Positions 2,896 through 49,362 of a stretch of DNA of 64,000 bases are shown one piece after another. Source of the stretch: Escherichia phage RB14. The translations under genes and the position numbers were made by a program. Position 1 is the first letter of the stretch, and each line of letters opens with the position of its first letter. The stretch lies in sequence record NC_012638.1. The stretch is one strand, 5' to 3'. The notes beneath the pieces were generated by a model. It was not told the origin of the DNA. It saw only the letters and a program-made list of their open reading frames with translations, and ran no database searches.

Positions 2896-2896
<1 letters not shown>

Positions 2897-3560: not shown

Positions 3561-4198
3561 TGAATGAACCCCAATTACTAATTGAAACTTGGGGTCAACC
3601 TGGCGAAATTATTGATGGCGTACCAATGCTTGAATCCCATGATGGAAAAGACTTAGGTTTAAAACCGGGTTTATACATCGAAGGAATATTCATGCAAGCA
3701 GAAGTCGTCAATAGAAATAAACGTCTTTATCCAAAACGTATATTAGAAAAAGCGGTAAAAGACTATATTAATGAGCAAGTTTTAACTAAACAAGCTCTCG
3801 GAGAATTAAATCATCCTCCACGCGCTAATGTTGACCCGATGCAAGCCGCTATCATTATAGAAGATATGTGGTGGAAAGGAAATGACGTATACGGACGAGC
3901 TCGTGTTATTGAAGGTGACCATGGTCCTGGAGATAAATTAGCAGCTAATATTCGTGCCGGATGGATTCCAGGAGTTTCTTCTCGTGGATTAGGTTCATTG
4001 ACTGACACAAATAAAGGTTATCGTATCGTAAACGAAGGATTCAAATTAACTGTAGGTGTTGATGCAGTATGGGGTCCAAGTGCTCCAGATGCATGGGTAA
4101 CTCCTAAGGAAATTACCGAATCACAGACGGCGGAAGCCGATACAAGTGCCGATGACGCCTATATGGCTCTCGCAGAGGCCATGAAAAAAGCGTTATAA
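3560..4198 (+). CDS. 21: Prohead core protease gp21 (212 aa)
   Basis: 212 aa, N-terminus MNEPQLL; position between 68 and 22. Confidence 0.92.
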   Translation: MNEPQLLIETWGQPGEIIDGVPMLESHDGKDLGLKPGLYIEGIFMQAEVVNRNKRLYPKRILEKAVKDYINEQVLTKQALGELNHPPRANVDPMQAAIIIEDMWWKGNDVYGRARVIEGDHGPGDKLAANIRAGWIPGVSSRGLGSLTDTNKGYRIVNEGFKLTVGVDAVWGPSAPDAWVTPKEITESQTAEADTSADDAYMALAEAMKKAL

Positions 4199-4228
4199 AT
4201 ATTATTATCTAAACAACAGGACTACAAA

Positions 4229-5038
4229 ATGCTTAAAGAACAACTGATTGCTGAAGCGCAAAAAATTGATGCTTCCGTTGCTCTTGATAGTATTTTCGAA
4301 TCAGTTAATATTTCTCCGGAAGCAAAAGAAACTTTCGGCACTGTATTCGAAGCTACCGTCAAGCAGCACGCCGTTAAATTAGCTGAATCTCATATCGCTA
4401 AAATTGCTGAAAAAGCAGAAGAAGAAGTAGAAAAAAATAAAGAAGAAGCCGAAGAAAAAGCTGAGAAGAAAATCGCTGAGCAAGCTTCTAAATTCATTGA
4501 CCATCTTGCGAAAGAATGGCTCGCTGAAAATAAATTAGCAGTTGATAAAGGCATCAAAGCCGAACTGTTTGAATCCATGCTTGGTGGATTAAAAGAGCTC
4601 TTTGTTGAACACAACGTTGTTGTTCCAGAAGAATCAGTTGATGTTGTGGCTGAAATGGAAGAAGAGCTGCAAGAACATAAAGAAGAATCAGCTCGTCTGT
4701 TCGAAGAACTCAATATGCGCGACGCATATATCAATTATGTGCAGCGTGAAGTGGCATTGAGCGAAAGTACTAAAGATCTGACTGAGTCTCAAAAAGAAAA
4801 AGTCTCTGCTCTGGTCGAAGGTATGGATTATTCAGATGCATTCTCAAGTAAATTGAGTGCCATCGTAGAAATGGTGAAGAAATCTAATAAAGATGAAAGC
4901 ACTATTACTGAGAGTATAAATACTCCTGATACTGAAGCAGCCGGACTGAATTTCGTCACTGAAGCTGTAGAAGATAAATCTGCATCCGGTGCAGAAGATA
5001 TTGTAAGTGTATATGCGAAAGTCGCATCTCGTTTCTAA
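4229..5038 (+). CDS. 22: Prohead scaffold protein gp22 (269 aa)
   Basis: 269 aa, Glu/Lys-rich coiled-coil composition; directly upstream of the major capsid gene. Confidence 0.92.
   Translation: MLKEQLIAEAQKIDASVALDSIFESVNISPEAKETFGTVFEATVKQHAVKLAESHIAKIAEKAEEEVEKNKEEAEEKAEKKIAEQASKFIDHLAKEWLAENKLAVDKGIKAELFESMLGGLKELFVEHNVVVPEESVDVVAEMEEELQEHKEESARLFEELNMRDAYINYVQREVALSESTKDLTESQKEKVSALVEGMDYSDAFSSKLSAIVEMVKKSNKDESTITESINTPDTEAAGLNFVTEAVEDKSASGAEDIVSVYAKVASRF
4915..4922 (+). promoter_or_regulatory. Late promoter TATAAATA inside the 3' end of gene 22, upstream of gene 23
   Basis: Exact match. Confidence 0.65.
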
Positions 5039-5056
5039 TTTTAAAGGTTAACACAA

Positions 5057-6622
5057 ATGACTATCAAAACTAAAGCTGAACTTTTGAACAAATGGAAGCC
5101 ATTACTGGAAGGTGAAGGTTTACCGGAAATTGCTAATAGCAAACAAGCGATTATCGCTAAAATCTTTGAAAACCAGGAAAAAGATTTCCAGACAGCTCCA
5201 GAGTACAAAGACGAAAAAATCGCTCAGGCGTTCGGTTCTTTCTTAACAGAAGCTGAAATCGGTGGTGACCACGGTTACAATGCTACTAACATCGCTGCAG
5301 GTCAGACTTCTGGCGCAGTAACTCAGATTGGCCCAGCTGTTATGGGTATGGTACGTCGTGCTATTCCTAACCTGATTGCTTTCGATATTTGTGGTGTTCA
5401 GCCGATGAACAGCCCGACTGGCCAGGTATTCGCACTGCGCGCAGTATATGGTAAAGACCCAATCGCTTCCGGTGCTAAAGAAGCATTCCACCCAATGTAT
5501 GGTCCAGATGCAATGTTCTCTGGTCAGGGTGCTGCTAAGAAATTCCCAGCTCTGGCTGCTAGCACACAAACCACAGTAGGTGATATCTATACTCACTTCT
5601 TCCAGGACACTGGTACTGTGTATCTGCAAGCTTCTGCTCAAGTAACAATTAGTGCAAGCGCAACTGACGCAGCTAAATTAGATGCTGAAATTAAGAAACA
5701 AATGGAAGCTGGTGCACTGGTAGAAATCGCTGAAGGTATGGCTACTTCTATCGCTGAACTTCAGGAAGGTTTCAATGGTTCTACCGATAACCCATGGAAT
5801 GAAATGGGCTTCCGTATCGATAAACAAGTTATCGAAGCTAAATCTCGCCAGCTGAAAGCTGCTTACTCTATCGAATTAGCACAAGACCTCCGCGCTGTTC
5901 ACGGTATGGATGCTGACGCTGAACTGTCTGGTATTCTGGCTACAGAAATTATGCTGGAAATCAACCGTGAAGTTGTTGATTGGATTAACTACTCCGCTCA
6001 GGTTGGTAAATCTGGTATGACCCTGACTCCGGGTTCTAAAGCTGGCGTATTCGACTTCCAGGATCCAATTGATATTCGTGGTGCTCGCTGGGCAGGTGAA
6101 TCCTTTAAAGCTCTGTTGTTCCAGATTGACAAAGAAGCAGTTGAAATTGCTCGTCAGACCGGTCGTGGTGAAGGTAACTTCATTATCGCTTCCCGTAACG
6201 TAGTTAACGTTCTGGCTTCAGTTGATACTGGCATTTCTTATGCTGCACAAGGTCTGGCTACCGGCTTTAACACTGATACTACCAAGTCAGTATTTGCTGG
6301 TGTTCTGGGTGGTAAATACCGTGTATATATCGACCAGTATGCTAAACAGGATTATTTCACTGTAGGTTATAAAGGTCCGAACGAAATGGATGCTGGTATT
6401 TACTACGCTCCATATGTAGCTCTGACTCCGCTGCGTGGTTCCGATCCGAAGAACTTCCAACCGGTAATGGGATTCAAAACTCGTTACGGTATCGGTATCA
6501 ACCCATTTGCAGAATCCGCTGCTCAGGCTCCGGCTTCTCGCATCCAGAGCGGTATGCCTTCTATTCTGAATAGCCTTGGTAAAAACGCTTACTTCCGCCG
6601 TGTATATGTTAAAGGTATCTAA
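5057..6622 (+). CDS. 23: Major capsid protein gp23 (521 aa)
   Basis: 521 aa; matches recalled T4 gp23; late promoter TATAAATA at 4915-4922; terminator hairpin downstream. Confidence 0.96.
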   Translation: MTIKTKAELLNKWKPLLEGEGLPEIANSKQAIIAKIFENQEKDFQTAPEYKDEKIAQAFGSFLTEAEIGGDHGYNATNIAAGQTSGAVTQIGPAVMGMVRRAIPNLIAFDICGVQPMNSPTGQVFALRAVYGKDPIASGAKEAFHPMYGPDAMFSGQGAAKKFPALAASTQTTVGDIYTHFFQDTGTVYLQASAQVTISASATDAAKLDAEIKKQMEAGALVEIAEGMATSIAELQEGFNGSTDNPWNEMGFRIDKQVIEAKSRQLKAAYSIELAQDLRAVHGMDADAELSGILATEIMLEINREVVDWINYSAQVGKSGMTLTPGSKAGVFDFQDPIDIRGARWAGESFKALLFQIDKEAVEIARQTGRGEGNFIIASRNVVNVLASVDTGISYAAQGLATGFNTDTTKSVFAGVLGGKYRVYIDQYAKQDYFTVGYKGPNEMDAGIYYAPYVALTPLRGSDPKNFQPVMGFKTRYGIGINPFAESAAQAPASRIQSGMPSILNSLGKNAYFRRVYVKGI

Positions 6623-11470: not shown

Positions 11471-12088
11471 ATGTACCACTTTGTATATGAAACAACAAAT
11501 CTAATAAATGGTAAAAAGTATATAGGAAAACACTCTACTGATGACTTGAATGATGGTTACCTTGGTTCTGGTAAGGCAATTCAGCAGGCTATAAAGAAAT
11601 ATGGTGAAAACAATTTCTCTAGAACAATACTAAAAGAGTTTAAAACTTCCGAAGAAGCGTACATATATGAAGAAGAAATTATAACTCCTGAAATAATAAA
11701 AAGCAAAAATTATTATAATATGAAACCTGGTGGAATTGGTGGAATTGTTATGACTACAGAGGTTATAGCAAAGATGAAAGAATCTTCCGCTAAGAGATTT
11801 GAAAACTCACCGGGCACGGTATTAGGTACAACTTGTTACACTAATGGAACTAAAAATATTTTTATTAAACCTGGAGAACTTGTTCCAGAAGGATTTGTAA
11901 AAGGGATGGTTCATCCTAATAGAAAGTCCAGAAAAGGATGTAAAGTCAAACCAACTACCACAGGAACTTTTTGGGTCAATAATGGTGCAATAAATAAATT
12001 AATACAACCAGACGGTATTATTCCCGACGGATTTATTAAAGGTCGTCTCATGAAAAGAGATTCTAAAGGCAAATTTAGTAAGGCATAA
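11471..12088 (+). mobile_element. segE: Free-standing GIY-YIG homing endonuclease gene (SegE-like, 205 aa)
   Basis: N-terminal GIY-YIG region (FVYETTNLINGKKYIGKHS ... GYLGSG); lies on the opposite strand between inh and uvsW where T4 carries segE; own TATAAATA at 11435-11442. Confidence 0.8.
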
Positions 12089-12090
12089 TT

Positions 12091-13599
12091 ATGGATATTA
12101 AAGTACATTTTCACGACTTCAGCCATGTACGCATCGATTGTGAAGAGAGCACGTTCCACGAATTAAGAGATTTCTTTTCGTTTGAGGCCGATGGATATAG
12201 GTTTAATCCTCGCTTCAGATATGGCAACTGGGATGGACGAATCCGTCTATTAGATTATAATCGCCTTCTTCCATTCGGCTTAATCGGGCAAATTAAAAAG
12301 TTCTGTGATAATTTTGGCTATAAAGCCTGGATTGACCCACAAATTAACGAAAAAGAAGAATTATCAAGAAAAGATTTTGATGAATGGCTTTCTAAATTAG
12401 AAATCTATTCAGGAAATAAAAGAATTGAACCACACTGGTATCAAAAAGATGCAGTGTTCGAAGGATTAGTTAATCGTCGTAGAATTCTTAATCTTCCAAC
12501 ATCCGCAGGTAAATCTTTAATTCAAGCTTTGCTTGCACGTTATTATTTGGAAAATTATGAAGGTAAAATTCTTATCATTGTTCCAACAACTGCTTTGACA
12601 ACTCAGATGGCTGATGACTTTGTTGATTATCGTTTATTCAGTCATGCAATGATAAAGAAAATCGGCGGCGGAGCATCAAAAGATGATAAATATAAAAATG
12701 ATGCACCGGTAATTGTTGGTACATGGCAAACTGTAGTAAAACAACCAAAAGAATGGTTCTCACAGTTTGGAATGATGATGAATGATGAATGCCATCTTGC
12801 TACAGGAAAAAGTATTTCATCTATAATATCAGGTTTAAATAACTGCATGTTTAAATTTGGTCTATCAGGTTCATTACGTGACGGCAAAGCTAATATCATG
12901 CAGTATGTTGGAATGTTTGGTGAAATATTTAAGCCAGTAACGACTTCTAAATTAATGGAAGATGGACAAGTAACTGAGCTAAAAATTAATAGTATTTTTC
13001 TTCGTTATCCTGATGAGTTCACTACTAAATTAAAGGGAAAAACTTATCAAGAAGAAATAAAAATTATTACTGGACTCAGTAAAAGAAATAAATGGATCGC
13101 TAAATTAGCTATTAAGCTTGCGCAAAAAGATGAAAACGCTTTTGTCATGTTTAAACATGTATCGCATGGTAAAGCTATTTTCGATTTAATTAAAAATGAA
13201 TACGATAAAGTTTATTACGTATCAGGGGAAGTTGATACCGAAACACGCAATATAATGAAAACCTTAGCTGAAAATGGTAAAGGAATAATTATAGTAGCTA
13301 GTTATGGTGTATTTTCTACTGGCATTTCAGTTAAAAATCTTCATCACGTTGTTTTAGCGCACGGTGTTAAATCAAAAATCATTGTATTACAAACAATTGG
13401 TCGTGTATTACGTAAGCATGGTTCTAAAACAATCGCAACAGTCTGGGACCTCATAGATGATTGTGGTGTTAAGCCAAAATCTGCTAATACTAAAAAGAAA
13501 TATGTTCATTTGAACTATCTTTTAAAACACGGCATTGATCGTATTCAGCGCTATGCAGATGAAAAATTTAATTACGTAATGAAAACAGTTAATTTATAA
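12091..13599 (+). CDS. uvsW: UvsW RNA-DNA/DNA helicase (502 aa)
   Basis: Walker A-like TSAGKS and DECH box; 502 aa as in T4 UvsW. Confidence 0.92.
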   Translation: MDIKVHFHDFSHVRIDCEESTFHELRDFFSFEADGYRFNPRFRYGNWDGRIRLLDYNRLLPFGLIGQIKKFCDNFGYKAWIDPQINEKEELSRKDFDEWLSKLEIYSGNKRIEPHWYQKDAVFEGLVNRRRILNLPTSAGKSLIQALLARYYLENYEGKILIIVPTTALTTQMADDFVDYRLFSHAMIKKIGGGASKDDKYKNDAPVIVGTWQTVVKQPKEWFSQFGMMMNDECHLATGKSISSIISGLNNCMFKFGLSGSLRDGKANIMQYVGMFGEIFKPVTTSKLMEDGQVTELKINSIFLRYPDEFTTKLKGKTYQEEIKIITGLSKRNKWIAKLAIKLAQKDENAFVMFKHVSHGKAIFDLIKNEYDKVYYVSGEVDTETRNIMKTLAENGKGIIIVASYGVFSTGISVKNLHHVVLAHGVKSKIIVLQTIGRVLRKHGSKTIATVWDLIDDCGVKPKSANTKKKYVHLNYLLKHGIDRIQRYADEKFNYVMKTVNL

Positions 13600-24566: not shown

Positions 24567-26663
24567 TTATCCTTGAACGAACTTGTAAGGCATGTTTGTA
24601 ATATCTATGCAAGACGCAATAATTCCAAGAGATGATTCTACTTTCTGTTTAACGTTTGATGAAACAAATGATGCAAAGTCAACTCTGTCTTCTATTTCAG
24701 TATCACCTGTCATTGCAACTACTTCACCGGTTTCCATTAAATGGTCTCCGTCATAGATTACCGATTCGGTGAGCTCTTCCGTGGTCATAACTTCAGCTTG
24801 AATGAGTTTTGTATTATTAGATGTTGTTCCGTCATTATTAGAAGCATCAGTTATTTTATTAACTTTGACCATCAATCCACGCGGTAGAATAACTTCAGCT
24901 TCTGTTGCTATTCCGAGACTTCCTGGATATACAACATTAACTTTATGAGCTCCATCAATTGCCCATCCTATTTGAACTTTAACGTATTCAGGATTTTCTT
25001 TATACGCTCTTATTTCGTTTGGATTAATAGTTATTCCTTCTTCATTTTTATCAACTGTTAATTCATTGCGAGCTTCTGGTTCTAAAAGACCAATACCAGC
25101 ATGTGTGATTCCAAAACGTCCAAAAATGATAGGAGTTAAAGAAGTAGATACAAAATTTCTGAAGTAGAACACTTTATTTTTAACTAACGCTTCATATATA
25201 GGAGCAGTCATACTTTGAGCACGATAAACTGTAATGCCTTCTGGTATACGGTCACCATTTTCAAAAGCTGAATCTAAGTTATTTATAGCAGATTCAATTT
25301 CTTTTTCACTCATTACATCATATCGTTCTGGATTGTAACGACCTAAAAGAAGATTATTGATGTCAGTATATCCTGAACCGCAATATTCTCTAATGCCACG
25401 CTTTTGTGATGGAGTATATTTAGAACCATCGCGGGCAATAGTAATATCAATCATTGGACCAGCACCAATTCCAGAAAAACTGTAAATCATTCGTTTGAGG
25501 AATTTAGTTTTTGCTGCGTTCCAGGAATTTTTAGTTATTTCTTCCCAGACTTCATCTGGTTGTCCTTTACGATTTTTATTATGATTAGCAAGCCATTTAT
25601 CTTTATAATCTTCAAAGAATTGATTTACAGCTGCTGCGTATTTCTCTAAACATTTTATTGAAGTAGTTGGTTCATTTTTAATTGCATTAAAAATTACTTC
25701 TTTAATTTTTTCTGAAACTTCACCGACTTGACTCATTGGAAAGAATTTATAATCATAGTGAAGTTCATCTGCCGTTCCTTCAGCAATAATTTTTGCTGCC
25801 TTTGTTTTAGAAGCTAATGAATTAATTCCAATTTTCATTTCTTCTGCTTCGGGAATTAAAGGTGCAGTAGCTGGTTTATTAAAATTAGCTGCTGTAGATT
25901 CATACTTCTGGAATAATTCACTTTCAAATCTAGAAGATTCCAATGACTGACTTTGTGCAATTGCTCTACGGGAAATTTTAACTTTAACGATTACGGCTTG
26001 GTCAGAACGTTTATCATTTTCTTGTGCAATAGATGCAGCAATTGCCTCATTTTTGGTTACTTGAGCTCCAGTATCTTTATTGATATAAACATCACCGACC
26101 TTCGATTCAACTTTAGTAAAGAGCTCGGTGCTAATTTCTGGAACTCCTGGAATGTCTTCTAGTGATACATTTTTACGATGTATAAGAATATATGCATACT
26201 TTTTATCGTAATCCCAGAGTTCCTTAAGAAGGACGTATCTGCCACCTGAACGACTGCGGATGAGTCTATCAGCAATAAGTTGAATTTGTCGAGCTTGACC
26301 GGCGGTTTTAGACTTAAGAATACGAAGCATGCAGGCATCAATTTTATATTGACGCATTGTTTGCATTGCAACAGTAAAAACTGAATTGATATAATTAATC
26401 GGGCTTGGACCAAGACCTTTTAATTTAGCAATTGAACCTTTAGCAGTTAATGTAAAAGGAACAATATGCATCATTTTATCGCCCATCTTTAAATCACGAT
26501 TAGTATCACCTCCAGATGTATAGGTACATAAACGAAAGCCTGGTTGTTCAATTGCATCATCAACATGAACTGAAAAAATTTGTGGTATTTTCTTCTTTGG
26601 ATTTAAGTTTGTAATCGGAAGAGTAGTATCTTCGTCAAATAATTCTGTAATGAGTTCCATCAT
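24567..26663 (-). CDS. alt: Alt ADP-ribosyltransferase, packaged in the head (698 aa from first ATG)
   Basis: N-terminus MMELITELFDEDTTLPITNL matches recalled T4 Alt; STS and EAE motifs; reverse TATAAATA upstream. Confidence 0.9.
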   Translation of the reverse strand: MMELITELFDEDTTLPITNLNPKKKIPQIFSVHVDDAIEQPGFRLCTYTSGGDTNRDLKMGDKMMHIVPFTLTAKGSIAKLKGLGPSPINYINSVFTVAMQTMRQYKIDACMLRILKSKTAGQARQIQLIADRLIRSRSGGRYVLLKELWDYDKKYAYILIHRKNVSLEDIPGVPEISTELFTKVESKVGDVYINKDTGAQVTKNEAIAASIAQENDKRSDQAVIVKVKISRRAIAQSQSLESSRFESELFQKYESTAANFNKPATAPLIPEAEEMKIGINSLASKTKAAKIIAEGTADELHYDYKFFPMSQVGEVSEKIKEVIFNAIKNEPTTSIKCLEKYAAAVNQFFEDYKDKWLANHNKNRKGQPDEVWEEITKNSWNAAKTKFLKRMIYSFSGIGAGPMIDITIARDGSKYTPSQKRGIREYCGSGYTDINNLLLGRYNPERYDVMSEKEIESAINNLDSAFENGDRIPEGITVYRAQSMTAPIYEALVKNKVFYFRNFVSTSLTPIIFGRFGITHAGIGLLEPEARNELTVDKNEEGITINPNEIRAYKENPEYVKVQIGWAIDGAHKVNVVYPGSLGIATEAEVILPRGLMVKVNKITDASNNDGTTSNNTKLIQAEVMTTEELTESVIYDGDHLMETGEVVAMTGDTEIEDRVDFASFVSSNVKQKVESSLGIIASCIDITNMPYKFVQG

Positions 26664-26712: not shown

Positions 26713-26901
26713 TTAATAATCTATTGGTAATAGAGTACGATATATTTCAAACTTTGGACCTTTTTCATAAGCATCAAAAGTTTCTGTGAATTTATTATAA
26801 GCATATGCATCTATAAATTCAATCATGATTTGCGATACAGAAGTAGAAACATCTCCACCTTCTTTTTGAGCCACGACAATTGTTTCTAAGTAAGCTTTCA
26901 T
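26713..26901 (-). CDS. Hypothetical small protein (62 aa)
   Basis: ATG overlapping the gene 30 stop (ATGA), suggesting translational coupling. Confidence 0.6.
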   Translation of the reverse strand: MKAYLETIVVAQKEGGDVSTSVSQIMIEFIDAYAYNKFTETFDAYEKGPKFEIYRTLLPIDY

Positions 26902-28361
26902 AAACCAGTTACCTCATGAAAATCGCCAAATACATCTTCGAACGTATTAGCTTTAGTTTTATCTTCACGTAAACGAATCGCAATTGGAAGAAATAATTTA
27001 ACGTAATCGGTGCGGCCATCAGATTTTAACCAACCGTTGCATTCGCACTCTAGAATTTTTCCAATATAATAATTTTGGTTTTCCATAATGCGAGTACGGT
27101 CAAGTTCATGCGATTTTATACCAGCTTTATCTTTTAAGCCTGAACCAGCATTTACTTTAATTTTTCCACACTCTGACTCAAGAATAAATCCACCCGCTTT
27201 AGTAGGGTCTTTACGGTGAGGATAAATTCCTACAATTTTTAAATCAACATCAATTACTTCTTTAAATTTATAAAGATTTTTTGAACGAGCATTTTCCCAT
27301 AATCCATCGATATTTTTGAGAATAATACCTTCAAGACCTTGGTCAATATACTTTTTGTAAATTACCTTAGCTTCATCTAGGTTATTTACTACTTGGTTTT
27401 CAATTAAAATTACTTTATCATAGCCTGATGTCATTTGTTCTAGTTTAGAAAAACGTACATCATATTTTAAACGAAACGCTGGAAGACCATATATTTCTAC
27501 TAATGGAACATAGTCCCAGACCTGAAACTTCATGCATTGTGCTTCTTTTTCAGAAATGGTTCCCTTTAAAGATTTATTAGCGATTCCATTAGAAGTAGTA
27601 CGTGATTCAGCTACTTCGGCGAATTCTTTAGCTTTACTAATTTCAGGATAAGCATCAAAAAGAAAATCTAGGCCTTCTGGTTCCTTTTCAACTTGCTCAT
27701 GGTATACCAATTCGCCATCAATTAACACACCTTCTGGATGAATCTGGCGAGCTTCTGCAGTCATTTTGATTAACTCTTCCTTGAGAAGATCTAATCCTAG
27801 ATATTCATTACCAGCTCGTGATAAAAGACGAACATCATCTAATTCATCACCTCTGACTTCAGCAAAGCACCGAGCTCCATCAGCTTTTAACTGCGCAAAA
27901 GCTGGAAACTTAATATTCTTACTAATGCCTTTTTCATCATAAGAACTTGCCAGCATTTGAGGTTGTTCAGGAATTAAACCTGGCCAAACTTTATTTGCAA
28001 TAGATACTGAAGCACCGCATTCAAGGTCTCGCATCATCACCCGACGCAAAACTTCAACATCATCTTTTTTACCGTCAGCAATATATCCAGTTAATTCCTC
28101 AATTGCCGCATTTCCGGTCAATTTCCGAGTAGCTAACGTGAATTCAATGAAGTCAAGCATATCGGTAAGAGTCAACATTCCAAAACTCTGGGTAGCAATA
28201 CCAGGTTTAGGCCATTTCTTGATATAATACTGTAACCCACGAGAATAAGTCAGACGATATACTCGTTTAAGCAATTCATTATCTTTATTCTTTTCAAGAA
28301 TTGCTTGCTTCTGCTTAGTTGAACCAATAGATGCTATTTCGTTCAGAATTTTAAGAATCAT
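26898..28361 (-). CDS. 30: ATP-dependent DNA ligase gp30 (487 aa)
   Basis: 487 aa; adenylation motif KADGAR; matches recalled T4 DNA ligase. Confidence 0.95.
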   Translation of the reverse strand: MILKILNEIASIGSTKQKQAILEKNKDNELLKRVYRLTYSRGLQYYIKKWPKPGIATQSFGMLTLTDMLDFIEFTLATRKLTGNAAIEELTGYIADGKKDDVEVLRRVMMRDLECGASVSIANKVWPGLIPEQPQMLASSYDEKGISKNIKFPAFAQLKADGARCFAEVRGDELDDVRLLSRAGNEYLGLDLLKEELIKMTAEARQIHPEGVLIDGELVYHEQVEKEPEGLDFLFDAYPEISKAKEFAEVAESRTTSNGIANKSLKGTISEKEAQCMKFQVWDYVPLVEIYGLPAFRLKYDVRFSKLEQMTSGYDKVILIENQVVNNLDEAKVIYKKYIDQGLEGIILKNIDGLWENARSKNLYKFKEVIDVDLKIVGIYPHRKDPTKAGGFILESECGKIKVNAGSGLKDKAGIKSHELDRTRIMENQNYYIGKILECECNGWLKSDGRTDYVKLFLPIAIRLREDKTKANTFEDVFGDFHEVTGL

Positions 28362-28627
28362 TGTTCATCCTTTAGAGTTTGGTTTACAGCTCTATTATAA
28401 ATCAATTCATCATTAAGCTCAGTCAAAGACCTGTGGTACGTGGTTCTAACTTTATTTCCTTGCATCCAGTGCTTGACGTAAATGAAACCTTGCTCTACGC
28501 ATTTTTTAAAAATTCGTTCGTCTTTTTGAGCTCGGAACTCTGGATTGCATCTAAAAAATTGATTTACGTGACCGTAATCACGTGTAGTATTACCTTCATT
28601 TTCATAAATAGTGTGAACGACAAACAT
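28358..28627 (-). CDS. Hypothetical protein (30.1 position, 89 aa)
   Basis: ATG start, overlaps gene 30 start codon region. Confidence 0.65.
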   Translation of the reverse strand: MFVVHTIYENEGNTTRDYGHVNQFFRCNPEFRAQKDERIFKKCVEQGFIYVKHWMQGNKVRTTYHRSLTELNDELIYNRAVNQTLKDEQ

Positions 28628-29463
28628 TAGAATGCTCCTTGGAAAATATTATCACCACCAGTAGGTCTATTATACAAATACTCTATGCCACCAGGTTTAA
28701 TATAGTTCCATGTCTGAAACGGATGTGTCTGATATGGATGATATAGATTATAAGGATTAAATCCAGGAGTTCTCCAGGTAGTGTTCCAAGGAAAAGAATC
28801 ATTTTTAATCATCTTTTCAATTACATCTTTTATAGCTTTTTCACTATCAAAACTTTCTTTATTTTCCTTCGATGGAAAAAGCTTATTCTCTACATCATTC
28901 CATGTATAAACTCGCTGCGCAGTTTTTGGAATACTGTCACGCTCCCCTCGAGCCATCCAATAAACAGGAACATTTAATATTTCACTCGCGTGATCGCAGT
29001 GGTGAGCGAGATCGTCAATATAACAAATTACGTTATATTTCTCTTTTGCCTTTTTGAACAACTCTTCTTTTGAAGAATCATGACCACACATCAATACTTC
29101 TGAGAAGGCACCAGGAAAAAGAGCATTCAAATTAAATTGACGATTTAGCAGAGCGTCAATAGAATCACCCAATGCTGTAACAGCTACAAAATTATAATCT
29201 TCTTTTAATTTGTTAATTACACACAGGGCATCTTTATACGGAGACAAGTAACGAATAAAATCTGAACGATTGTATTTTTCAATTAACTTGACACCAAGTT
29301 CTTCATCGCAATTAAAGAGCTTACCAGGAGAAATAAATTTTTCGTCCTGAATCATTTTTAAAATATGTTCCAACGGAAGATTATATTTTTGGGCAAAATA
29401 AGGAAGACCTGATTGCCAGCTTAAACATACACCATCAATATCAGTCAAAATAGTAGGCTTCAT
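28627..29463 (-). CDS. HAD-superfamily-like hydrolase (30.2 position, 278 aa)
   Basis: N-terminal DIDGV (DxDx[T/V]) motif typical of HAD phosphatases/nucleotidases. Confidence 0.7.
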   Translation of the reverse strand: MKPTILTDIDGVCLSWQSGLPYFAQKYNLPLEHILKMIQDEKFISPGKLFNCDEELGVKLIEKYNRSDFIRYLSPYKDALCVINKLKEDYNFVAVTALGDSIDALLNRQFNLNALFPGAFSEVLMCGHDSSKEELFKKAKEKYNVICYIDDLAHHCDHASEILNVPVYWMARGERDSIPKTAQRVYTWNDVENKLFPSKENKESFDSEKAIKDVIEKMIKNDSFPWNTTWRTPGFNPYNLYHPYQTHPFQTWNYIKPGGIEYLYNRPTGGDNIFQGAF

Positions 29464-29918
29464 AGAGAGTCTCTTAATAGGTTTAACACATCAATAAATT
29501 CAGCTTCGGTTAATATTGTATCATCTTTTGTTAGACTACTAGCCATGCTGTGCTTCAAAACTTTTCCTTTCGAGGCTTGTAATGCATCACGAAAGCCCTT
29601 GTTTTGAATCGCTGCCTCAAAATACGCATTTGTGTATAATTCTTTCCACGCTGGAGAGTATCTTGAAAACGGAACTCCGAGCCAGAAGAGGGTCCCACGG
29701 TCCTGAGCTCTAGCATAAGACCTTCCAGCTTGTTGGGCGGCAAGCCCGGATAACCCAAATACACGACGTTGCTGTTCAACATTTTTCACCTTACATCCTT
29801 GGAGAAATCCTTCAAGACCTCCAAATTGGATACCATCCATAACAAAAGGCCATTGGGCGAAATTACTTAATGCACACGATGGCCATCTAAAATTGCTTCT
29901 AATCTCTAACTCAGACAT
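29460..29918 (-). CDS. NADAR (YbiA/DUF1768)-like protein (30.3 position, 152 aa)
   Basis: Track start is TTG; first ATG at 29918; segment LSNFAQWPF resembles the conserved region of YbiA/NADAR proteins as I recall it. Confidence 0.65.
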   Translation of the reverse strand: MSELEIRSNFRWPSCALSNFAQWPFVMDGIQFGGLEGFLQGCKVKNVEQQRRVFGLSGLAAQQAGRSYARAQDRGTLFWLGVPFSRYSPAWKELYTNAYFEAAIQNKGFRDALQASKGKVLKHSMASSLTKDDTILTEAEFIDVLNLLRDSL

Positions 29919-30117
29919 TTTCAATACTTATAATTTCAACATCAGCCCAATGACCATAGCAAGGAAGACGAAATTCAACTGGCCAGTTAGGGTCCTTTTC
30001 TAATATAATAGACTTAACTTGTGGTTCTTCATGTTCATCAGTATATGGATTTTTATCTGTTACTTTATATGTGACCTTAATGTACTGAATTCCAAAAATC
30101 TTATAAATTATATTCAT
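29911..30117 (-). CDS. Hypothetical small protein (68 aa)
   Basis: ATG start; tight packing in the 30.x early block. Confidence 0.55.
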   Translation of the reverse strand: MNIIYKIFGIQYIKVTYKVTDKNPYTDEHEEPQVKSIILEKDPNWPVEFRLPCYGHWADVEIISIENV

Positions 30118-30311
30118 ACTAATTCCTTTAATCCGTAAATAGGAGATAATTCATCACCCATACGAAGGTCTTCATTTCCATCTACCCAGGAAACAATATA
30201 AGCCTCTTTTATTTGAACACCACTCCATTTAAATGGAGGTAGAACCTTAGAAATTAATCCAGGTATACCAACTCCCTTTAATTCAACAGTTTGACCTAAA
30301 AAGAATTTCAT
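30114..30311 (-). CDS. Hypothetical small protein (65 aa)
   Basis: ATG start; overlaps neighbours by 4 nt. Confidence 0.55.
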   Translation of the reverse strand: MKFFLGQTVELKGVGIPGLISKVLPPFKWSGVQIKEAYIVSWVDGNEDLRMGDELSPIYGLKELV

Positions 30312-30598
30312 CAGAACCTCATCTGAAAGCCGTGTGATTTAACATTACCGCCGCCAATATCAGAAATATTAATTTCACGCGCAATTGAAGGGTCAATGTC
30401 AATTTCACGATTAAGTTTAGCGATAGCTAAAGTATCACGCCCATTTACTGTACGGAATTCTAAAGGACAAACCACATCAACATAATTTTTAATCGATTCA
30501 CTGGTAGGTTGCAAATGAGCAGGAAGGTCTTTAGGCGCCTTAGAGAAAACAACTTCACAGAAATTTTTGCGGGTATCAAAATAAGTAGTCATAAACAT
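30311..30598 (-). CDS. Hypothetical protein (95 aa from first ATG)
   Basis: Track start (30649) is TTG; ATG at 30598 has a GAGGA Shine-Dalgarno; a stem-loop lies in the leader. Confidence 0.55.
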   Translation of the reverse strand: MFMTTYFDTRKNFCEVVFSKAPKDLPAHLQPTSESIKNYVDVVCPLEFRTVNGRDTLAIAKLNREIDIDPSIAREINISDIGGGNVKSHGFQMRF

Positions 30599-30638
30599 AG
30601 TATTTTCCTCAGTAAGGGGCCGAAGCCCCTTTTTTATT

Positions 30639-31004
30639 TTAAATATCAAATTCGTTAAGAACTACATCAAAGATTGCTTCAAGATGCTCAGGTTTAGCTC
30701 TATTACTCAGAATATGACGAATCCAAGTTTTAACCAGAAGCTTACGATTAACGCCATTCCAGCAAGGATGAGTCCCTAAATCACGTTGACGAAAATCATC
30801 ATCTAATGCGATTTTAAAAGAAGAACCTTCTTTCGTGATTGAAACTGTAATACCGTTTTCAAATCGCATATAAACATAGTTAGGAGTCATATACTGTTCA
30901 ATTTCGCATACTGAACCATTTTGATGTTTCCAAAGGCAGATAGTATCAATAGAACCTGCAATACCGTTAGAAACATATTTACGTTCAAAGTTGATGTAGT
31001 TCAT
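30639..31004 (-). CDS. Hypothetical protein (121 aa from first ATG)
   Basis: Track start is TTG; ATG at 31004 preceded by GGAG; early promoter at 31041-31069. Confidence 0.6.
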   Translation of the reverse strand: MNYINFERKYVSNGIAGSIDTICLWKHQNGSVCEIEQYMTPNYVYMRFENGITVSITKEGSSFKIALDDDFRQRDLGTHPCWNGVNRKLLVKTWIRHILSNRAKPEHLEAIFDVVLNEFDI

Positions 31005-31040
31005 TTTATTCTCCAAGATGTTTAATTGCGGTACAGGTAT

Positions 31041-31069
31041 ATAATATCATATCCTGTACCAAAGTAAAC
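31041..31069 (-). promoter_or_regulatory. Early promoter overlapping an 8 bp inverted repeat
   Basis: Minus strand GTTTAC, 17 nt, TATTAT; inverted repeat GGTACAGG...CCTGTACC. Confidence 0.5.
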
Positions 31070-31071
31070 AA

Positions 31072-31404
31072 TTATTTTACTACTTTCCAATGCTTCATAT
31101 CAAGTTTACCAACTTTTTTCATCTTCTCAATTAAGCGTTCGGCACGTTGGCGAGCTGTAACATAATACCATTCACCTAATTCATTTTGTTCAATTTTTCC
31201 AACGATTACTGTATTCAATTCATAAATCCAACCAGTAAAGAAATTATGAACTTGAATTGTAAAGGTGAAATCTGTTCCCATACCTTCTGTTGTTTCTACT
31301 TCAATAATATCACCTTCAACTGCCATTAAGAACCACATAGTTTCATCATATTTACCATTGAAGCATTTAGTTTTAACTGCAGCGTTCAGATTAATCGTTT
31401 TCAT
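31072..31404 (-). CDS. Hypothetical protein (110 aa)
   Basis: ATG start with AAGGAG upstream. Confidence 0.6.
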   Translation of the reverse strand: MKTINLNAAVKTKCFNGKYDETMWFLMAVEGDIIEVETTEGMGTDFTFTIQVHNFFTGWIYELNTVIVGKIEQNELGEWYYVTARQRAERLIEKMKKVGKLDMKHWKVVK

Positions 31405-31491
31405 TTTATTCTCCTTTGTTTGTGTAAGATAATACTATCACAAAGGAACCATACTGTAAACAACTTTGTGCAATCTTTGGAAAATAAAAAA

Positions 31492-31509
31492 GGACTCCCG
31501 AAGGAGTCC
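31492..31509 (-). terminator. Terminator after the small basic gene at 31515-31691
   Basis: GGACUCC-UUCG-GGAGUCC hairpin followed on the minus strand by a U-run. Confidence 0.75.
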
Positions 31510-31514
31510 TCAAC

Positions 31515-31691
31515 TTATGCTTTCTGCTTACCAAAACGAGAAGCATCATCTCGAAGAACCGCACGTGCTCGGCGCATGATCTTCTCAACAGTTTGATTGA
31601 TACGAGAGTTCGACCCACGCTTGTAACCAGCGCGTTTAGAATCACCAACTTTCTTTTCAACTGCTTTCTTTGCTTTAGCTTGTTTTGCCAT
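31515..31691 (-). CDS. Small basic protein (58 aa, Lys/Arg-rich)
   Basis: ATG at 31691 (track start further upstream is not ATG); followed by a rho-independent terminator. Confidence 0.5.
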   Translation of the reverse strand: MAKQAKAKKAVEKKVGDSKRAGYKRGSNSRINQTVEKIMRRARAVLRDDASRFGKQKA

Positions 31692-31934
31692 TATAAATTC
31701 TCTTTTAAATGAAAATGCAGGACTTATTGGCATTGCCTGCGCAAGCCCTCAAGGGGAACATAGGTTTTGAATATTTACCGACAGGATAACCATAAACCCG
31801 TCATCATTCACATTCAAGAGGTACACCATAAAACTGCCGGGGTCTTAAAACTATAATGATTCGCAAATCATTAATCAGACAGTTCGATGGCTCCTCGATT
31901 TTAGCTCACACTAAGGCAGTGAATCTCCAATAAA

Positions 31935-32183
31935 TTACTTCAATGTTACCACAAAGTGACGAACTGCTTTTCGTGCAGCAGAAGCCAGAGGCTTGGCATA
32001 TTTAAGTTCATCTTTTTCCTGAAGCTCAGCAGCTAATGCAGTTTGAGCAGGATTCAGATGTTTGAAATAACGCAGGATTTCAAGAGCTTCGGCTTCAACA
32101 TCAATAGATGCGCCATAGTTTTCGTGACCATTATTCCATGCGTTTCGTTGCAGTTCAAGAGCGTGTTGTAATTGTTTAATCAT
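31935..32183 (-). CDS. rIII: Lysis inhibition accessory protein rIII (82 aa)
   Basis: 82 aa, immediately downstream of gene 31 as in T4. Confidence 0.85.
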   Translation of the reverse strand: MIKQLQHALELQRNAWNNGHENYGASIDVEAEALEILRYFKHLNPAQTALAAELQEKDELKYAKPLASAARKAVRHFVVTLK

Positions 32184-32301
32184 TTAAAAATTCTCGTTAG
32201 AGATTAAAACTCGGTAGTCACGTTCTTCTGAATTTCATCTTCTTTCGACAGATCTCTCAGTTGTAGACTACCACATAGAATTGAAACTCAATTCATATTA
32301 T

Positions 32302-32309
32302 TATTTATA
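32302..32309 (-). promoter_or_regulatory. Late promoter (reverse TATAAATA) upstream of rIII
   Basis: Exact match adjacent to the gene 31 stop. Confidence 0.55.
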
Positions 32310-32645
32310 TCACTTATAAAGACACGGAATAGCTTTATAGTGACAGGTAACGAATTTTTGCTTAATTTCTTTTGGCTGCTTAAGACCCAGAGCTACAAAA
32401 GGATGTGGAACGTTTCGAATTTGACCAACTGGAAGAGAAGTCAAATCACCAACTTCACAGAAACCTTCAGGAACATCAGGACCAACAGAGTGAATTACAC
32501 ACAGTTCAGGAACTTCACCTTGAACACGTTTACCGATAATAAGTCCTGATTCTGTAACTTCTTCATCACCGGCTTGTGCAGGTTCAGAAACTAAAATAAC
32601 ATATTCACCGACAGCACGAATTGGTAGCTGTTGTACTTCAGACAT
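32310..32645 (-). CDS. 31: Co-chaperonin gp31 (GroES analogue, 111 aa)
   Basis: 111 aa; matches recalled T4 gp31. Confidence 0.92.
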
Positions 32646-48126: not shown

Positions 48127-48780
48127 TTAATACTTGCAAGATTTCACAGTTTCAATAAAAACACTTTTAGCTTTCTGTGAATCAATATTTAAAATTTTTC
48201 TATAAGCCTTTAACTTTATAGAATAATTATTCCAGACTAAATTATCAGTCTGTTCATCATGTTTATCAATTATATTTAAAAATGAATCAAGCAAGATAAA
48301 CGTCTCAAACGAAATTATATTCGATTGCAGAAGTTTAAAAATATAACTTGACTGAACCTTTGGATTATATTCAAAGATTTCTTTAAAAGCAGAAACTTCA
48401 ACTTTTTTACTAAAATAATAAATGTTGCGAATATCTTCTTCAAACTTAAATTTAATTTGCTTTAAGCGTCCGATATATTCACGATAAAACACAAGTGCAT
48501 CAGCGTCAGAGATGTCACCAATCCAAGCATCTTGGTTAGCAACCAAATTGCTTATAAAGATTAAAGCAAGTTCCTTTAATTTATATTTTTCTGATAACTT
48601 CTGGAAAAAATACTTATCCCTTCGCTTTTGATAAGCGGCATCAGACACCCGCATGCACCAATTATACTTAATAACATCATACTTTCCATTCATATGCTGT
48701 TTTATCATTAAGTATAATTTATAAACTGATTTACCATCAATGTATCTTTCACCACCAGCAGGCATGCGGAGTTTAATCAT
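48127..48780 (-). CDS. 59: Helicase loader gp59 (217 aa)
   Basis: 217 aa; directly follows gene 33; only about 100 bp separates it from gene 32. Confidence 0.9.
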   Translation of the reverse strand: MIKLRMPAGGERYIDGKSVYKLYLMIKQHMNGKYDVIKYNWCMRVSDAAYQKRRDKYFFQKLSEKYKLKELALIFISNLVANQDAWIGDISDADALVFYREYIGRLKQIKFKFEEDIRNIYYFSKKVEVSAFKEIFEYNPKVQSSYIFKLLQSNIISFETFILLDSFLNIIDKHDEQTDNLVWNNYSIKLKAYRKILNIDSQKAKSVFIETVKSCKY

Positions 48781-49115
48781 AGCAGAAAATCTAGTGTATT
48801 AGTTTTTTCACAACGAACAACAGAAGGACGTAAAAGATTTTCGTCAATAGCTTCTGACTGAATTTTTTCAATTATACCCGAAGGAATAAATTTAGCAAAT
48901 TGAGTTTCAGGAATAGAATTTTCTTCCAAGAATGCTGTCGTAGCTTCAAGATAACTCATTCCAAACTCTTCTACCATTTTTTCAATAATAAATCCATTTT
49001 CTTGACGATCAAGAAGCTTTGCTATTTCATCCTTTTCTTTTTTGATTGAAAGTTCTTTTTCTGAAAGACCGGTCTCATCGACCGGACGAATATCATTTAG
49101 AGAAAACTGTGTCAT
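48777..49115 (-). CDS. 33: Late transcription co-activator gp33 (112 aa)
   Basis: ATG at 49115 gives MTQFSL... and 112 aa. Confidence 0.85.
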   Translation of the reverse strand: MTQFSLNDIRPVDETGLSEKELSIKKEKDEIAKLLDRQENGFIIEKMVEEFGMSYLEATTAFLEENSIPETQFAKFIPSGIIEKIQSEAIDENLLRPSVVRCEKTNTLDFLL

Positions 49116-49362
49116 AAAGTTCAACTACCTCTTCAGTTTCAGCTTCAAACACATCACGGTTATCTTTATGATACAAAGCTAATAGACGATTAAACATCTT
49201 ACCATCAACGCCAAGTTCATCTTTAGCACGAATTCGAATATCTTTAATCAGTTCATTATAACCGGAAATTTTCAGTTTATGATCAGATGCTTCTTTAATA
49301 AATTTAGCCAAGTCTTCGCCGTGGATAGCTTCATCAAATTCAACCATTTCTTTTTTAGCCAT
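49093..49362 (-). CDS. dsbA: Double-stranded DNA-binding protein DsbA (89 aa)
   Basis: 89 aa; overlaps gene 33 start. Confidence 0.85.
   Translation of the reverse strand: MAKKEMVEFDEAIHGEDLAKFIKEASDHKLKISGYNELIKDIRIRAKDELGVDGKMFNRLLALYHKDNRDVFEAETEEVVELYDTVFSK

What the first reader, a model, noticed from the sequence alone, without database searches (positions are those of the whole stretch)
28627..29918. Adjacent HAD-like hydrolase and NADAR-like genes in the early 30.x block
The 278 aa product of 28627-29463 starts with a DIDGV motif typical of HAD phosphatases and nucleotidases. The adjacent gene (29460-29918) contains LSNFAQWPF, which resembles the conserved core of YbiA/NADAR (DUF1768) proteins as I recall it. 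NADAR domains have been reported to remove ADP-ribose from guanine bases modified by DarT-type toxins. A phage that itself injects ADP-ribosyltransferases and also encodes a NADAR-like protein early could be using it against host ADP-ribosylating defences or for NAD/ADP-ribose turnover. That functional link is inference only.
Basis: partly seen in the sequence, partly recalled or inferred. Interest (0 to 1): 0.5.

Follow-up and report, generated by a model that had tools for sequence, protein, structure and literature searches.

The report
Known anti-DarT NADAR plus HAD phosphatase
These are genes 30.3 and 30.2 of a T4-like phage: 30.3 is the already published AdfN enzyme that strips ADP-ribose off phage DNA to defeat the bacterial DarTG1 defence, and 30.2 is an uncharacterised, dispensable HAD-type phosphatase that sits next to it through inherited gene order, with no sign that it is needed for that defence.

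Summary
Both ORFs exist at the stated coordinates, on the minus strand, in a Tequatrovirus genome 99.6% identical to RB51/RB68.

ORF 29460-29918 is gp30.3. It matches Pfam Phage_30_3 (E 4e-70), is 98% identical to T4 gp30.3 and is full length. It has E36, K43 and H123, and its AlphaFold model matches only the three solved NADAR structures. T4 gp30.3 has already been characterised as AdfN, a guanine-specific DNA ADP-ribosylglycohydrolase that is necessary and sufficient for T-even phages to resist DarTG1 (Nat Commun 2025; Toxins 2024; HIDEN-SEQ Tn-seq 2025).

ORF 28627-29463 is gp30.2. It is a C1-capped HAD phosphatase with all four catalytic motifs invariant, remotely tied to the NT5C deoxyribonucleotidase family, and it carries a disordered aromatic tail. 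Its substrate is unknown.

The two genes do not look like an obligate pair:
- T4 30.2 insertions are neutral on DarTG1 hosts (log2FC -0.12, against -7.25 for 30.3).
- The pairing is broken in many Straboviridae genera.
- The stable neighbour of 30.2 is the DNA ligase gene, not the NADAR gene.

Verdict: already known, low interest. The only open item is the function of gp30.2.

The parts
29460..29918 (-). Gene 30.3 = adfN: a 152-aa NADAR-family DNA (guanine) ADP-ribosylglycohydrolase and anti-DarTG1 factor. Catalytic residues are E36 (codon 29811-29813), K43 (29790-29792) and the phage-clade His H123 (29550-29552). The C-terminal helix at aa 138-151 is intact.
   Evidence: Pfam PF08010 at E 4e-70. 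98.0% identical to T4 gp30.3, with only V53I, M125I and S128G differing. AF2 pLDDT 92.7. Foldseek top 3 hits are 2b3w YbiA, 8bau PnNADAR and 8bat Geobacter NADAR. E36 and H123 are invariant and K43 is at least 90% conserved in 58 homologues. Function was shown for the T4 allele in PMC11825919.
28864..29463 (-). Gene 30.2, catalytic core (aa 1-200): a HAD-superfamily phosphatase with a helical C1 cap (aa about 16-80). Motif I is D8-I-D10-G-V12, motif II is T96, motif III is K132 and motif IV is D150-D151.
28627..28863 (-). Gene 30.2, C-terminal tail (aa about 201-278, plus the stop codon). It is predicted disordered beyond a helix at aa 207-220 and is rich in aromatic residues and proline. It carries the short conserved motifs W-R-T-P-G and G-I-E-Y-L-Y-N-R-P. 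The tail varies in length or is absent in other genera.
   Evidence: AF2 pLDDT is 41-55 for aa 225-278. Tail motifs are seen in the alignment. The [IL]E[YW][LYW]..P motif occurs 7-11 residues from the C-terminus in 16 of 57 long-tailed cluster representatives.
29555..29782 (-). 30.3': a 75-aa ORF in another frame inside 30.3, annotated in the T4 record X53848. It is open here too but shows no sign of protein-level constraint.
   Evidence: Seven of 75 residues differ from T4 in this frame, against one change in the 30.3 frame over the same DNA.
29515..29540 (-). Position equivalent to the T4 middle promoter PM30.2, inside the 3' end of 30.3 and reading into 30.2. The -10 element TACAAT is kept. 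The MotA-box core just upstream (about 29541-29546) reads TGGCT here where T4 has TTGCT.
   Evidence: T4 annotation. T4 and window sequences compared side by side. Function was not tested.
26898..28361 (-). Gene 30, ATP-dependent DNA ligase. It lies downstream in the same tightly packed gene array and is the conserved neighbour of 30.2 across Straboviridae.
   Evidence: Pfam PF01068 at E 3e-32. Context table.
28358..28627 (-). Gene 30.1 (DUF3045, 89 aa), between 30.2 and the ligase gene.
   Evidence: Pfam PF11243 at E 2.9e-64.
29911..30117 (-). Gene 30.4 (68 aa), immediately upstream of adfN and overlapping it by 8 nt.
   Evidence: phrog_2042. T4 30.4 insertions are mildly depleted on DarTG1 (log2FC -1.79, adjusted p 0.014), consistent with polarity on adfN.

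Best explanation
The window carries the T4-type gene array 30.4-30.3-30.2-30.1-30 on the minus strand.

Gene 30.3 is adfN. Its product is a small stand-alone NADAR enzyme. It cleaves the N-glycosidic bond between ADP-ribose and guanine in phage DNA that the host DarT1 toxin has modified. This restores replicable DNA and lets the phage grow on DarTG1-carrying hosts. This mechanism is shown experimentally for the T4 protein. It is inferred here from 98% identity, full length, intact catalytic residues and the predicted fold.

Gene 30.2 encodes a Mg2+-dependent HAD phosphomonoesterase with a C1 cap. It is a far-diverged relative of NT5C 5'(3')-deoxyribonucleotidases. It most likely dephosphorylates a small phosphorylated metabolite, with a (deoxy)nucleoside monophosphate as the best guess. 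That is inference; no substrate is known. It also has a disordered C-terminal tail that probably docks it to a partner protein (speculative).

The two genes are neighbours because both belong to an old syntenic block upstream of the DNA ligase gene. Nothing indicates that they work together: 30.2 is dispensable for growth and for DarTG1 counter-defence in T4.
For: Identity and family:
- 99.6% DNA identity to RB51/RB68. Protein identity to T4 is 98.0% for gp30.3 and 97.5% for gp30.2.
- PF08010 at E 4e-70.
- NADAR fold. The family profile picks YbiA out of the PDB.
- E36, K43 and H123 are conserved. His in the last strand is the phage-clade hallmark (PMC11125620; PMC11543638).

Function of the T4 orthologue:
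- T4 and T2 lacking adfN cannot plaque on DarTG1.
- Ectopic adfN rescues RB69, and E36A or K43A weaken that rescue.
- The purified enzyme de-ADP-ribosylates DNA (PMC11825919).
- Tn-seq gives log2FC -7.25 for 30.3 on DarTG1.

gp30.2:
- HAD motifs I-IV are invariant.
- 14 of 55 close homologues give sub-threshold PF00702 hits and 8 of 55 give NT5C hits.
- 21 of 50 distant relatives hit NT5C, one of them above the Pfam gathering score.

No sign of coupling:
- T4 30.2 has 72 of 72 TA sites hit and is classed non-essential. Its log2FC on DarTG1 is -0.12, p 0.61.
- NADAR and 30.2 are separated in Jiaodavirus, Ceceduovirus, Biquartavirus, Krischvirus, Schizotequatrovirus and several metagenomic contigs. 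In contrast, 30.2 stays within about 1.5 kb of the ligase gene in 10 of the 11 lineages in which its surroundings were read.
Against: - No experiment was done on this phage's own alleles.
- AdfN-T4 does not neutralise DarT1 in uninfected cells. It rescues T5 and Bas25 only weakly. An unidentified T-even factor may therefore be needed.
- The window gp30.2 itself reaches no Pfam or NCBIfam threshold. Structure alone cannot tell NT5C from other C1-capped HADs.
- The NADAR-HAD pairing recurs in five genera. In a Vibrio phage the NADAR gene is followed by a different, bona fide NT5C gene, which hints at some link.
- The Tn-seq table used was identified as the DarTG1 sheet by its position in the file and by the 30.3 signal. 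Its header was not seen.
Confidence: 0.88

Rival explanations
1. gp30.2 and gp30.3 form a two-enzyme module. The HAD phosphatase either processes the product released by the NADAR enzyme (ADP-ribose or a derived phospho-sugar or nucleotide), or it is the missing T-even-specific factor that AdfN-T4 needs for full activity.
For: - The two genes overlap by 4 nt.
- NADAR and 30.2 are adjacent or nearly so in Tequatrovirus, Lazarusvirus, Morganella phage, Pseudotevenvirus and Chrysonvirus.
- In Vibrio phage PVA8 the NADAR gene is followed, with a 14-nt overlap, by a different HAD protein that passes the Pfam NT5C threshold.
- AdfN-T4 works fully only during T-even infection.
Against: - T4 transposon insertions in 30.2 are not depleted on DarTG1 (log2FC -0.12, against -7.25 for 30.3).
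- nudE and pseT are also neutral.
- The pairing is lost in at least six lineages that keep both genes or keep one alone.
- Other phage NADARs (Bas32, Bas60) act without any partner.
Confidence: 0.06
2. gp30.2 works with DNA ligase gp30 on nucleic-acid ends, for example as a 3'-phosphatase that prepares nicks for sealing, as PNKP-type HAD domains do.
For: - 30.2 lies just upstream of, or within about 1.5 kb of, the ligase gene in 10 of the 11 lineages examined. It often overlaps the ligase start, even where the NADAR gene has moved away.
- There is a weak PHROG match to polynucleotide kinase (E 0.004).
- One distant relative hits HAD_PNKP.
Against: - The protein has a roughly 65-residue helical C1 cap. 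By established knowledge of HAD enzymes, this goes with small-molecule substrates, whereas PNKP-type phosphatases are capless.
- Sequence links run to NT5C, not to PNKP.
- Gene order in this core region of Straboviridae is conserved in general, so synteny alone is weak evidence.
- T4 already has PseT.
Confidence: 0.1
3. gp30.3 in this phage acts mainly on small molecules, such as soluble ADP-ribose-derived immune signals or riboflavin intermediates as for YbiA, or it reverses modifications made by the phage's own Alt/ModA/ModB enzymes. On this view DNA is not its main substrate.
For: - Iyer et al. 2022 proposed soluble ADPr derivatives as the main substrates of phage NADARs and noted their co-expression with the ARTs.
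- Alt lies about 3 kb away.
- YbiA is the best structural match.
Against: - Direct DNA de-ADP-ribosylation and a DarTG1-specific requirement were shown for the 98%-identical T4 protein.
- 30.3 is non-essential on hosts without DarTG.
- alt, modA and modB are neutral on DarTG1.
Confidence: 0.04

Closest known systems
AdfN-T4 (T4 gp30.3), anti-DarT factor NADAR (Johannesman et al., Nat Commun 2025, PMC11825919)
   Same: The two proteins are orthologues. Both are 152 aa, 98.0% identical, and occupy the same genomic slot. Both have E36, K43, H123 and the C-terminal helix that the inactive RB69 allele lacks.
   Different: There are three conservative substitutions (V53I, M125I, S128G). No experiment has been done on this allele.
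DarG1 / DarT1-associated NADAR antitoxins (BC4488 family; Schuller et al., Mol Cell 2023, PMC11543638)
   Same: Same fold, and the same Glu and Lys catalytic pair. Same chemistry, namely hydrolysis of guanine-linked ADP-ribose on DNA.
   Different: The third catalytic position is His here, not Asp. The gene is an orphan with no DarT partner. The T4 version does not act as an antitoxin in uninfected cells.
E. coli YbiA (PDB 2b3w), YbiA subfamily of NADAR
   Same: It is the best structural match (Foldseek E 8.7e-5, TM 0.68).
   Different: Sequence identity is only 16%. YbiA has Glu in the last strand where the phage clade has His. YbiA was first described as an N-glycosidase on riboflavin intermediates.
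NT5C family (Pfam PF06941): cytosolic and mitochondrial 5'(3')-deoxyribonucleotidases cdN and mdN, and the S. epidermidis deoxyribonucleotidase-like protein 3bwv
   Different: The window protein itself gives no NT5C hit. It carries an extra disordered tail of about 80 residues. Its substrate is unknown.
T4 Pnkp (PseT) 3'-phosphatase domain
   Different: It is capless and acts on nucleic-acid ends, whereas gp30.2 has a C1 cap.

Membership tests
NADAR superfamily, phage gp30.3/AdfN clade | Match to the curated family model (Pfam PF08010 Phage_30_3) above its gathering score | tested here: met
   234.5 bits against a cut-off of 36, E 4e-70, covering 138 of 138 profile positions.
NADAR superfamily, phage gp30.3/AdfN clade | NADAR alpha+beta fold | tested here: met
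   AF2 pLDDT 92.7 and pTM 0.88. The only PDB matches with probability of at least 0.98 are the three NADAR structures 2b3w, 8bau and 8bat.
NADAR superfamily, phage gp30.3/AdfN clade | Catalytic Glu and Lys (E36 and K43 in AdfN-T4; E88 and K95 in E. coli C7 NADAR) | tested here: met
   E36 and K43 are present. There are no indels relative to T4. E36 is invariant and K43 is at least 90% conserved in 58 homologues.
NADAR superfamily, phage gp30.3/AdfN clade | His in the last beta-strand, in place of Glu (YbiA) or Asp (DarG1) | tested here: met
   H123 is invariant and lies at the end of strand 120-123 of the model. The criterion comes from PMC11125620 and PMC11543638.
NADAR superfamily, phage gp30.3/AdfN clade | Intact C-terminal helix (the RB69 frameshift allele lacking 15 residues is defective) | tested here: met
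   The ORF is the full 152 aa. Helix 138-151 is modelled at high confidence.
NADAR superfamily, phage gp30.3/AdfN clade | Hydrolysis of guanine-ADP-ribose on DNA and relief of DarTG1 restriction | not testable with these tools
   This is shown for the 98%-identical T4 protein only.
HAD (haloacid dehalogenase-like) phosphatase superfamily | Motif I DxDx[TV], with both Asp residues | tested here: met
   D8-I-D10-G-V12. D8, D10 and G11 are invariant in 55 homologues. D8 and D10 are also invariant in the 51-sequence distant set.
HAD (haloacid dehalogenase-like) phosphatase superfamily | Motif II Ser/Thr, motif III Lys, motif IV acidic pair | tested here: met
   T96 is at least 90% conserved. K132 is invariant. 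D150 and D151 are invariant.
HAD (haloacid dehalogenase-like) phosphatase superfamily | Rossmannoid HAD core fold with a cap | tested here: met
HAD (haloacid dehalogenase-like) phosphatase superfamily | Match to a curated HAD model above threshold | tested here: not met
   The window protein gives no Pfam or NCBIfam hit at threshold. Homologues give only sub-threshold PF00702 and PF13419 hits.
NT5C 5'(3')-deoxyribonucleotidase family (PF06941) | Match to the NT5C model | tested here: inconclusive
   The window protein gives no hit. Eight of 55 close homologues and 21 of 50 distant ones hit at E of 0.01 or better (0.1 or better for the close set). P0346 scores 29 bits against a cut-off of 24.8. 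The profile search against the PDB picks mouse cdN at E 0.04.
NT5C 5'(3')-deoxyribonucleotidase family (PF06941) | dNMP phosphatase activity | not testable with these tools
   No biochemical data were found. A full-text search for gp30.2 returned no paper.
Functional NADAR + HAD anti-DarT module (hypothetical) | Both genes required on DarTG1 hosts | tested here: not met
   Published T4 Tn-seq gives 30.2 a log2FC of -0.12 (p 0.61) and 30.3 a log2FC of -7.25.
Functional NADAR + HAD anti-DarT module (hypothetical) | Gene pairing conserved wherever both genes occur | tested here: not met
   The genes are together in 5 genera. They are separated in Jiaodavirus, Ceceduovirus and Schizotequatrovirus, and one occurs without the other nearby in several further lineages.

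The most novel reading that the evidence does not exclude
gp30.2 could be more than a housekeeping leftover. It may be a nucleotide or phospho-metabolite phosphatase that is recruited by its conserved disordered tail (W-R-T-P-G ... G-I-E-Y-L-Y-N-R-P, which resembles the T-L-D-F-L-L clamp-binding end of gp33) to a replication or repair partner such as the gp45 clamp or DNA ligase. It might act there in DNA-damage or anti-defence chemistry. This could include being a redundant helper of AdfN, which would explain why AdfN-T4 works fully only in T-even infections.
Probability: 0.1. Interest if true: 0.5.

Novelty: already known. Interest (0 to 1): 0.15.

Why it matters
The main point of the finding is that a T4-like phage carries a NADAR enzyme to undo DNA ADP-ribosylation by DarT. 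This was published in 2024-2025, and gene 30.3 now has a name, adfN. For this window the result is useful only as annotation: the phage carries an intact, presumably active adfN allele, so it should resist DarTG1, unlike RB69. Two questions remain open. First, what does the widespread but dispensable HAD phosphatase gp30.2 do? Homologues occur in about 1400 phage records, no publication was found, and the gene keeps its place next to the DNA ligase gene. Second, which T-even factor does AdfN-T4 need? The available Tn-seq data argue that 30.2 alone is not that factor.

Tried and rejected
1. Direct sequence searches of both proteins against PDB chains gave only insignificant hits. Family profiles gave marginal but correct ones: YbiA at E 0.007 and cdN at E 0.04.

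2. NCBIfam and PADLOC gave nothing useful. The weak thiamine pyrophosphokinase hits for gp30.2 were rejected as noise. They are far below cut-off and contradicted by the fold.

3. I tested the idea that gp30.2 is the missing T-even factor for AdfN. It was rejected on T4 Tn-seq data.

4. I tested the idea that NADAR-HAD adjacency is a conserved functional pairing. It was rejected after reading 26 loci from more than 12 lineages.

5. The sigma-70 promoter scan of 28000-32500 found no more sites than in shuffled sequence (16 against 15 +/- 4). It was not used, apart from noting a terminator-like hairpin at 31490-31511(-).

6. hhalign of the gp30.2 profile against the Vibrio NT5C protein aligned only the motif I segment (probability 81%). 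That is too short to call orthology.

8. The clamp-binding-like motif in the tail matches a pattern that hits 6 ORFs in the window, against roughly 2-4 expected by chance (my estimate). It is not significant on its own.

9. Literature searches for gp30.2 returned nothing. The T4 genome review (PMC150520) is not held.

10. I did not retrieve the 30.2 rows of the other Tn-seq conditions. Part 17 missed them.
Full report
**1. What is there**

The two ORFs exist at the stated coordinates, both on the minus strand. ORF 28627-29463 is 278 aa and begins MKPTILTDIDGV. ORF 29460-29918 is 152 aa and contains LSNFAQWPF at residues 17-25.

They sit in a tightly packed, co-oriented array. Gene 30.4 overlaps 30.3 by 8 nt. 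Gene 30.3 overlaps 30.2 by 4 nt (ATGA). Gene 30.2 overlaps 30.1 by 1 nt. The DNA ligase gene (gene 30) and alt follow.

The stretch 28300-30200 is 99.6% identical to phages RB51 and RB68, where these genes are annotated 30.2 and 30.3. The proteins are 97.5% and 98.0% identical to T4 gp30.2 and gp30.3.

**2. Gene 30.3**

The protein matches Pfam PF08010 (Phage_30_3) at E 4e-70 over the whole model. An AlphaFold2 model built on 58 homologues is confident (pLDDT 92.7). Its only meaningful matches in the PDB are the three solved NADAR structures: E. coli YbiA, the Phytophthora NADAR bound to ADP-ribose, and the Geobacter DarT1-associated NADAR. A family profile also retrieves YbiA from PDB sequences through the SNFA.WPF...E..FQ..K core.

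E36 and H123 are invariant and K43 is nearly invariant. E36 and K43 are the residues mutated in AdfN-T4. His in the last strand is the published hallmark of the phage gp30.3 clade, where YbiA has Glu and DarG1-type NADARs have Asp.

The three differences from T4 (V53I, M125I, S128G) avoid these positions. The C-terminal helix that the defective RB69 allele lacks is intact.

**3. This is already known**

Johannesman et al. (Nat Commun 2025, PMC11825919) mapped DarTG1 resistance of T2 and T4 to gene 30.3 and renamed it adfN. They reported the following:
- T4 and T2 adfN deletions cannot plaque on DarTG1 hosts.
- Ectopic adfN rescues RB69.
- E36A and K43A weaken the rescue.
- Purified protein removes ADP-ribose from DarT1-modified DNA.
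- DarTG2, which modifies thymidine, is not countered.

In vitro guanine-ADPr hydrolysis by T4 gp30.3 had been reported earlier (Toxins 2024, PMC11125620). An independent T4 transposon screen found 30.3 non-essential on K-12 but lost on DarTG1 (bioRxiv 10.1101/2025.11.20.689424). In the table I read, 30.3 has log2FC -7.25 with adjusted p of 0.

Both of its own refutation tests come out in its favour.

**4. Gene 30.2**

The window protein reaches no curated threshold. The HAD assignment is nevertheless solid:
- D8, D10 and G11 (motif I, DIDGV), K132 (motif III) and D150-D151 (motif IV) are invariant, and T96 (motif II) is at least 90% conserved, in 55 homologues.
- D8, D10 and K132 stay invariant in a set reaching down to about 22% identity.
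- The AF2 model has pLDDT above 90 for residues 1-190.

A helical insert of about 65 residues directly after motif I forms a C1 cap. From general knowledge of HAD enzymes, this points to a small-molecule substrate.

Structure alone does not single out a subfamily. Sequence points to NT5C-type 5'(3')-deoxyribonucleotidases:
- The profile's best PDB hit is mouse cdN, through DGVL.DF.SGL.
- An exhaustive HMM search finds 1295 cluster representatives.
- Of 50 distant members, 21 match Pfam NT5C. One clears the gathering score over the full model.

Residues 201-278 are mostly disordered in the model. They carry short motifs (WRTPG; GIEYLYNRP) that recur at a fixed distance from the C-terminus in a subset of genera. 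Other genera have different tails or none.

I found no publication on gp30.2. In T4 it is non-essential, with 72 of 72 TA sites hit.

**5. Are the two genes a pair?**

Evidence for a pairing:
- The 4-nt overlap between the genes.
- The same NADAR-30.2-ligase cluster occurs in Lazarusvirus, a Morganella phage, Pseudotevenvirus and Chrysonvirus.
- In a Vibrio Schizotequatrovirus the NADAR gene is followed by a different, bona fide NT5C gene.
- AdfN-T4 works fully only during T-even infection, so an extra phage factor is suspected.

Evidence against a pairing:
- In the DarTG1 Tn-seq table, 30.2 is neutral (log2FC -0.12, p 0.61).
- 30.4 is mildly depleted, as expected from polarity on 30.3.
- nudE, pseT, alt, modA, modB and 61.2 are all neutral.
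- NADAR has left the cluster in Jiaodavirus and Biquartavirus (tRNA region), in Ceceduovirus, and in several metagenomic T4-like contigs.
- Krischvirus keeps NADAR next to the ligase gene with no 30.2 between them.

In contrast, 30.2 stays immediately upstream of, or within about 1.5 kb of, the DNA ligase gene in 10 of the 11 lineages where I looked at its surroundings. The adjacency is best read as inherited synteny in a block that ends with the ligase gene. If gene neighbourhood says anything about gp30.2, it points to the ligase and not to AdfN.

One caveat applies to the Tn-seq evidence. I identified the sheet as Control_vs_DarTG1 from its position in the file (sheet index) and from the 30.3 signal. 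I did not see its header.

**6. Mechanism**

Shown for the T4 orthologue and inferred here:
- DarT1 ADP-ribosylates guanines in phage DNA.
- AdfN hydrolyses the ribose-guanine bond through E36, K43 and H123 and releases ADP-ribose.
- Replication then proceeds.

Inferred only: gp30.2 is a Mg2+-dependent phosphomonoesterase using D8 as nucleophile and D10 as general acid/base. It probably acts on a (deoxy)nucleoside monophosphate or a similar metabolite. Its tail probably docks it to a partner.

The rival readings are a NADAR-HAD module, a ligase-associated end-processing phosphatase, and a small-molecule or self-ART role for the NADAR. They are rated at 0.06, 0.10 and 0.04.

**7. Verdict**

The finding is accurate and well reasoned, but its core is already in the literature, so novelty is "already known" and interest is low. 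The residual open question is the function of gp30.2 and of its tail. The most novel reading not excluded is a partner-tethered phosphatase acting in replication, repair or counter-defence. I give it about 10%.

Noticed in passing
L003 (Vibrio phage vB_ValM_PVA8, OQ164647.1) 4007-5998: The gp30.3-type NADAR gene (4007-4471) is followed, with a 14-nt overlap, by a 167-aa protein that passes the Pfam NT5C threshold (E 4.3e-11; motif I DMDNVLVDFQSG). A calcineurin-like metallophosphoesterase comes next (4958-5998). A NADAR + NT5C-type HAD pairing therefore recurs with a very different HAD gene.
   Followed up: partly
L025 (Vibrio phage TCU-VP03-AIR1, PP712906.1) 538-3073: In this Schizotequatrovirus the closer gp30.2 homologue (2501-3073) lies about 150 kb from the NADAR gene. 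It sits next to nicotinamide phosphoribosyltransferase NadV, divergently oriented, and next to radical-SAM genes. This is a possible hint of a link to NAD or nucleotide salvage.
   Followed up: no
window 28627-28863 (-), gp30.2 aa 201-278: The disordered tail carries the conserved short motifs WRTPG and GIEYLYNRP. The second resembles the C-terminal clamp-binding-type ending TLDFLL of gp33, encoded at window 48777-49124(-). The degenerate pattern hits 6 ORFs in the window, against roughly 2-4 expected by chance, so this is suggestive only.
   Followed up: partly
window 11911-12162 (-): An 83-aa ORF ends in FLDFLLG, the same hydrophobic-acidic C-terminal motif as gp33. It may be another small sliding-clamp-binding protein. 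Its identity was not checked.
   Followed up: no
window 26898-28361 (-), DNA ligase aa about 230-237: The DNA ligase contains an internal EGLDFLFD segment that matches the same motif pattern.
   Followed up: no
window 29555-29782 (-): The 75-aa alternative-frame ORF 30.3', annotated in T4 record X53848, is open here too. It differs from T4 at 7 of 75 residues, while the overlapping 30.3 frame changes at only one. There is therefore no sign of selection on 30.3' as a protein.
   Followed up: partly
window 29515-29546 (-): The position of T4 middle promoter PM30.2 lies inside the 3' end of 30.3. The -10 TACAAT is kept. The MotA-box core just upstream reads TGGCT here where T4 has TTGCT, and this same base change makes I125M in AdfN. 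Separate middle-mode transcription of 30.2 may be weaker in this phage.
   Followed up: no
window 31490-31511 (-) and 31432-31460 (-): A strong terminator-like hairpin (GAGGACTCC-TTCG-GGAGTCCTT plus a T-run) is followed by a promoter-like site with an extended -10. This probably marks the start of the transcription unit that runs through 30.8 ... 30.3, 30.2 and 30.
   Followed up: no
literature, PMC11125620 methods: The Toxins 2024 paper describes its T4 NADAR construct as gp30.3 residues 1-208. T4 and this window encode 152 aa. phrog_652 also has a 296-position profile in which this protein matches only positions 126-272. Some family members or annotations therefore carry an N-terminal extension.
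   Followed up: no
window 24567-26663 (-): Alt is 698 aa here, against 682 aa from the T4 gene coordinates listed in the HIDEN-SEQ supplement (2049 nt). It carries a clear ADP-ribosyltransferase domain at aa 379-628.
   Followed up: no
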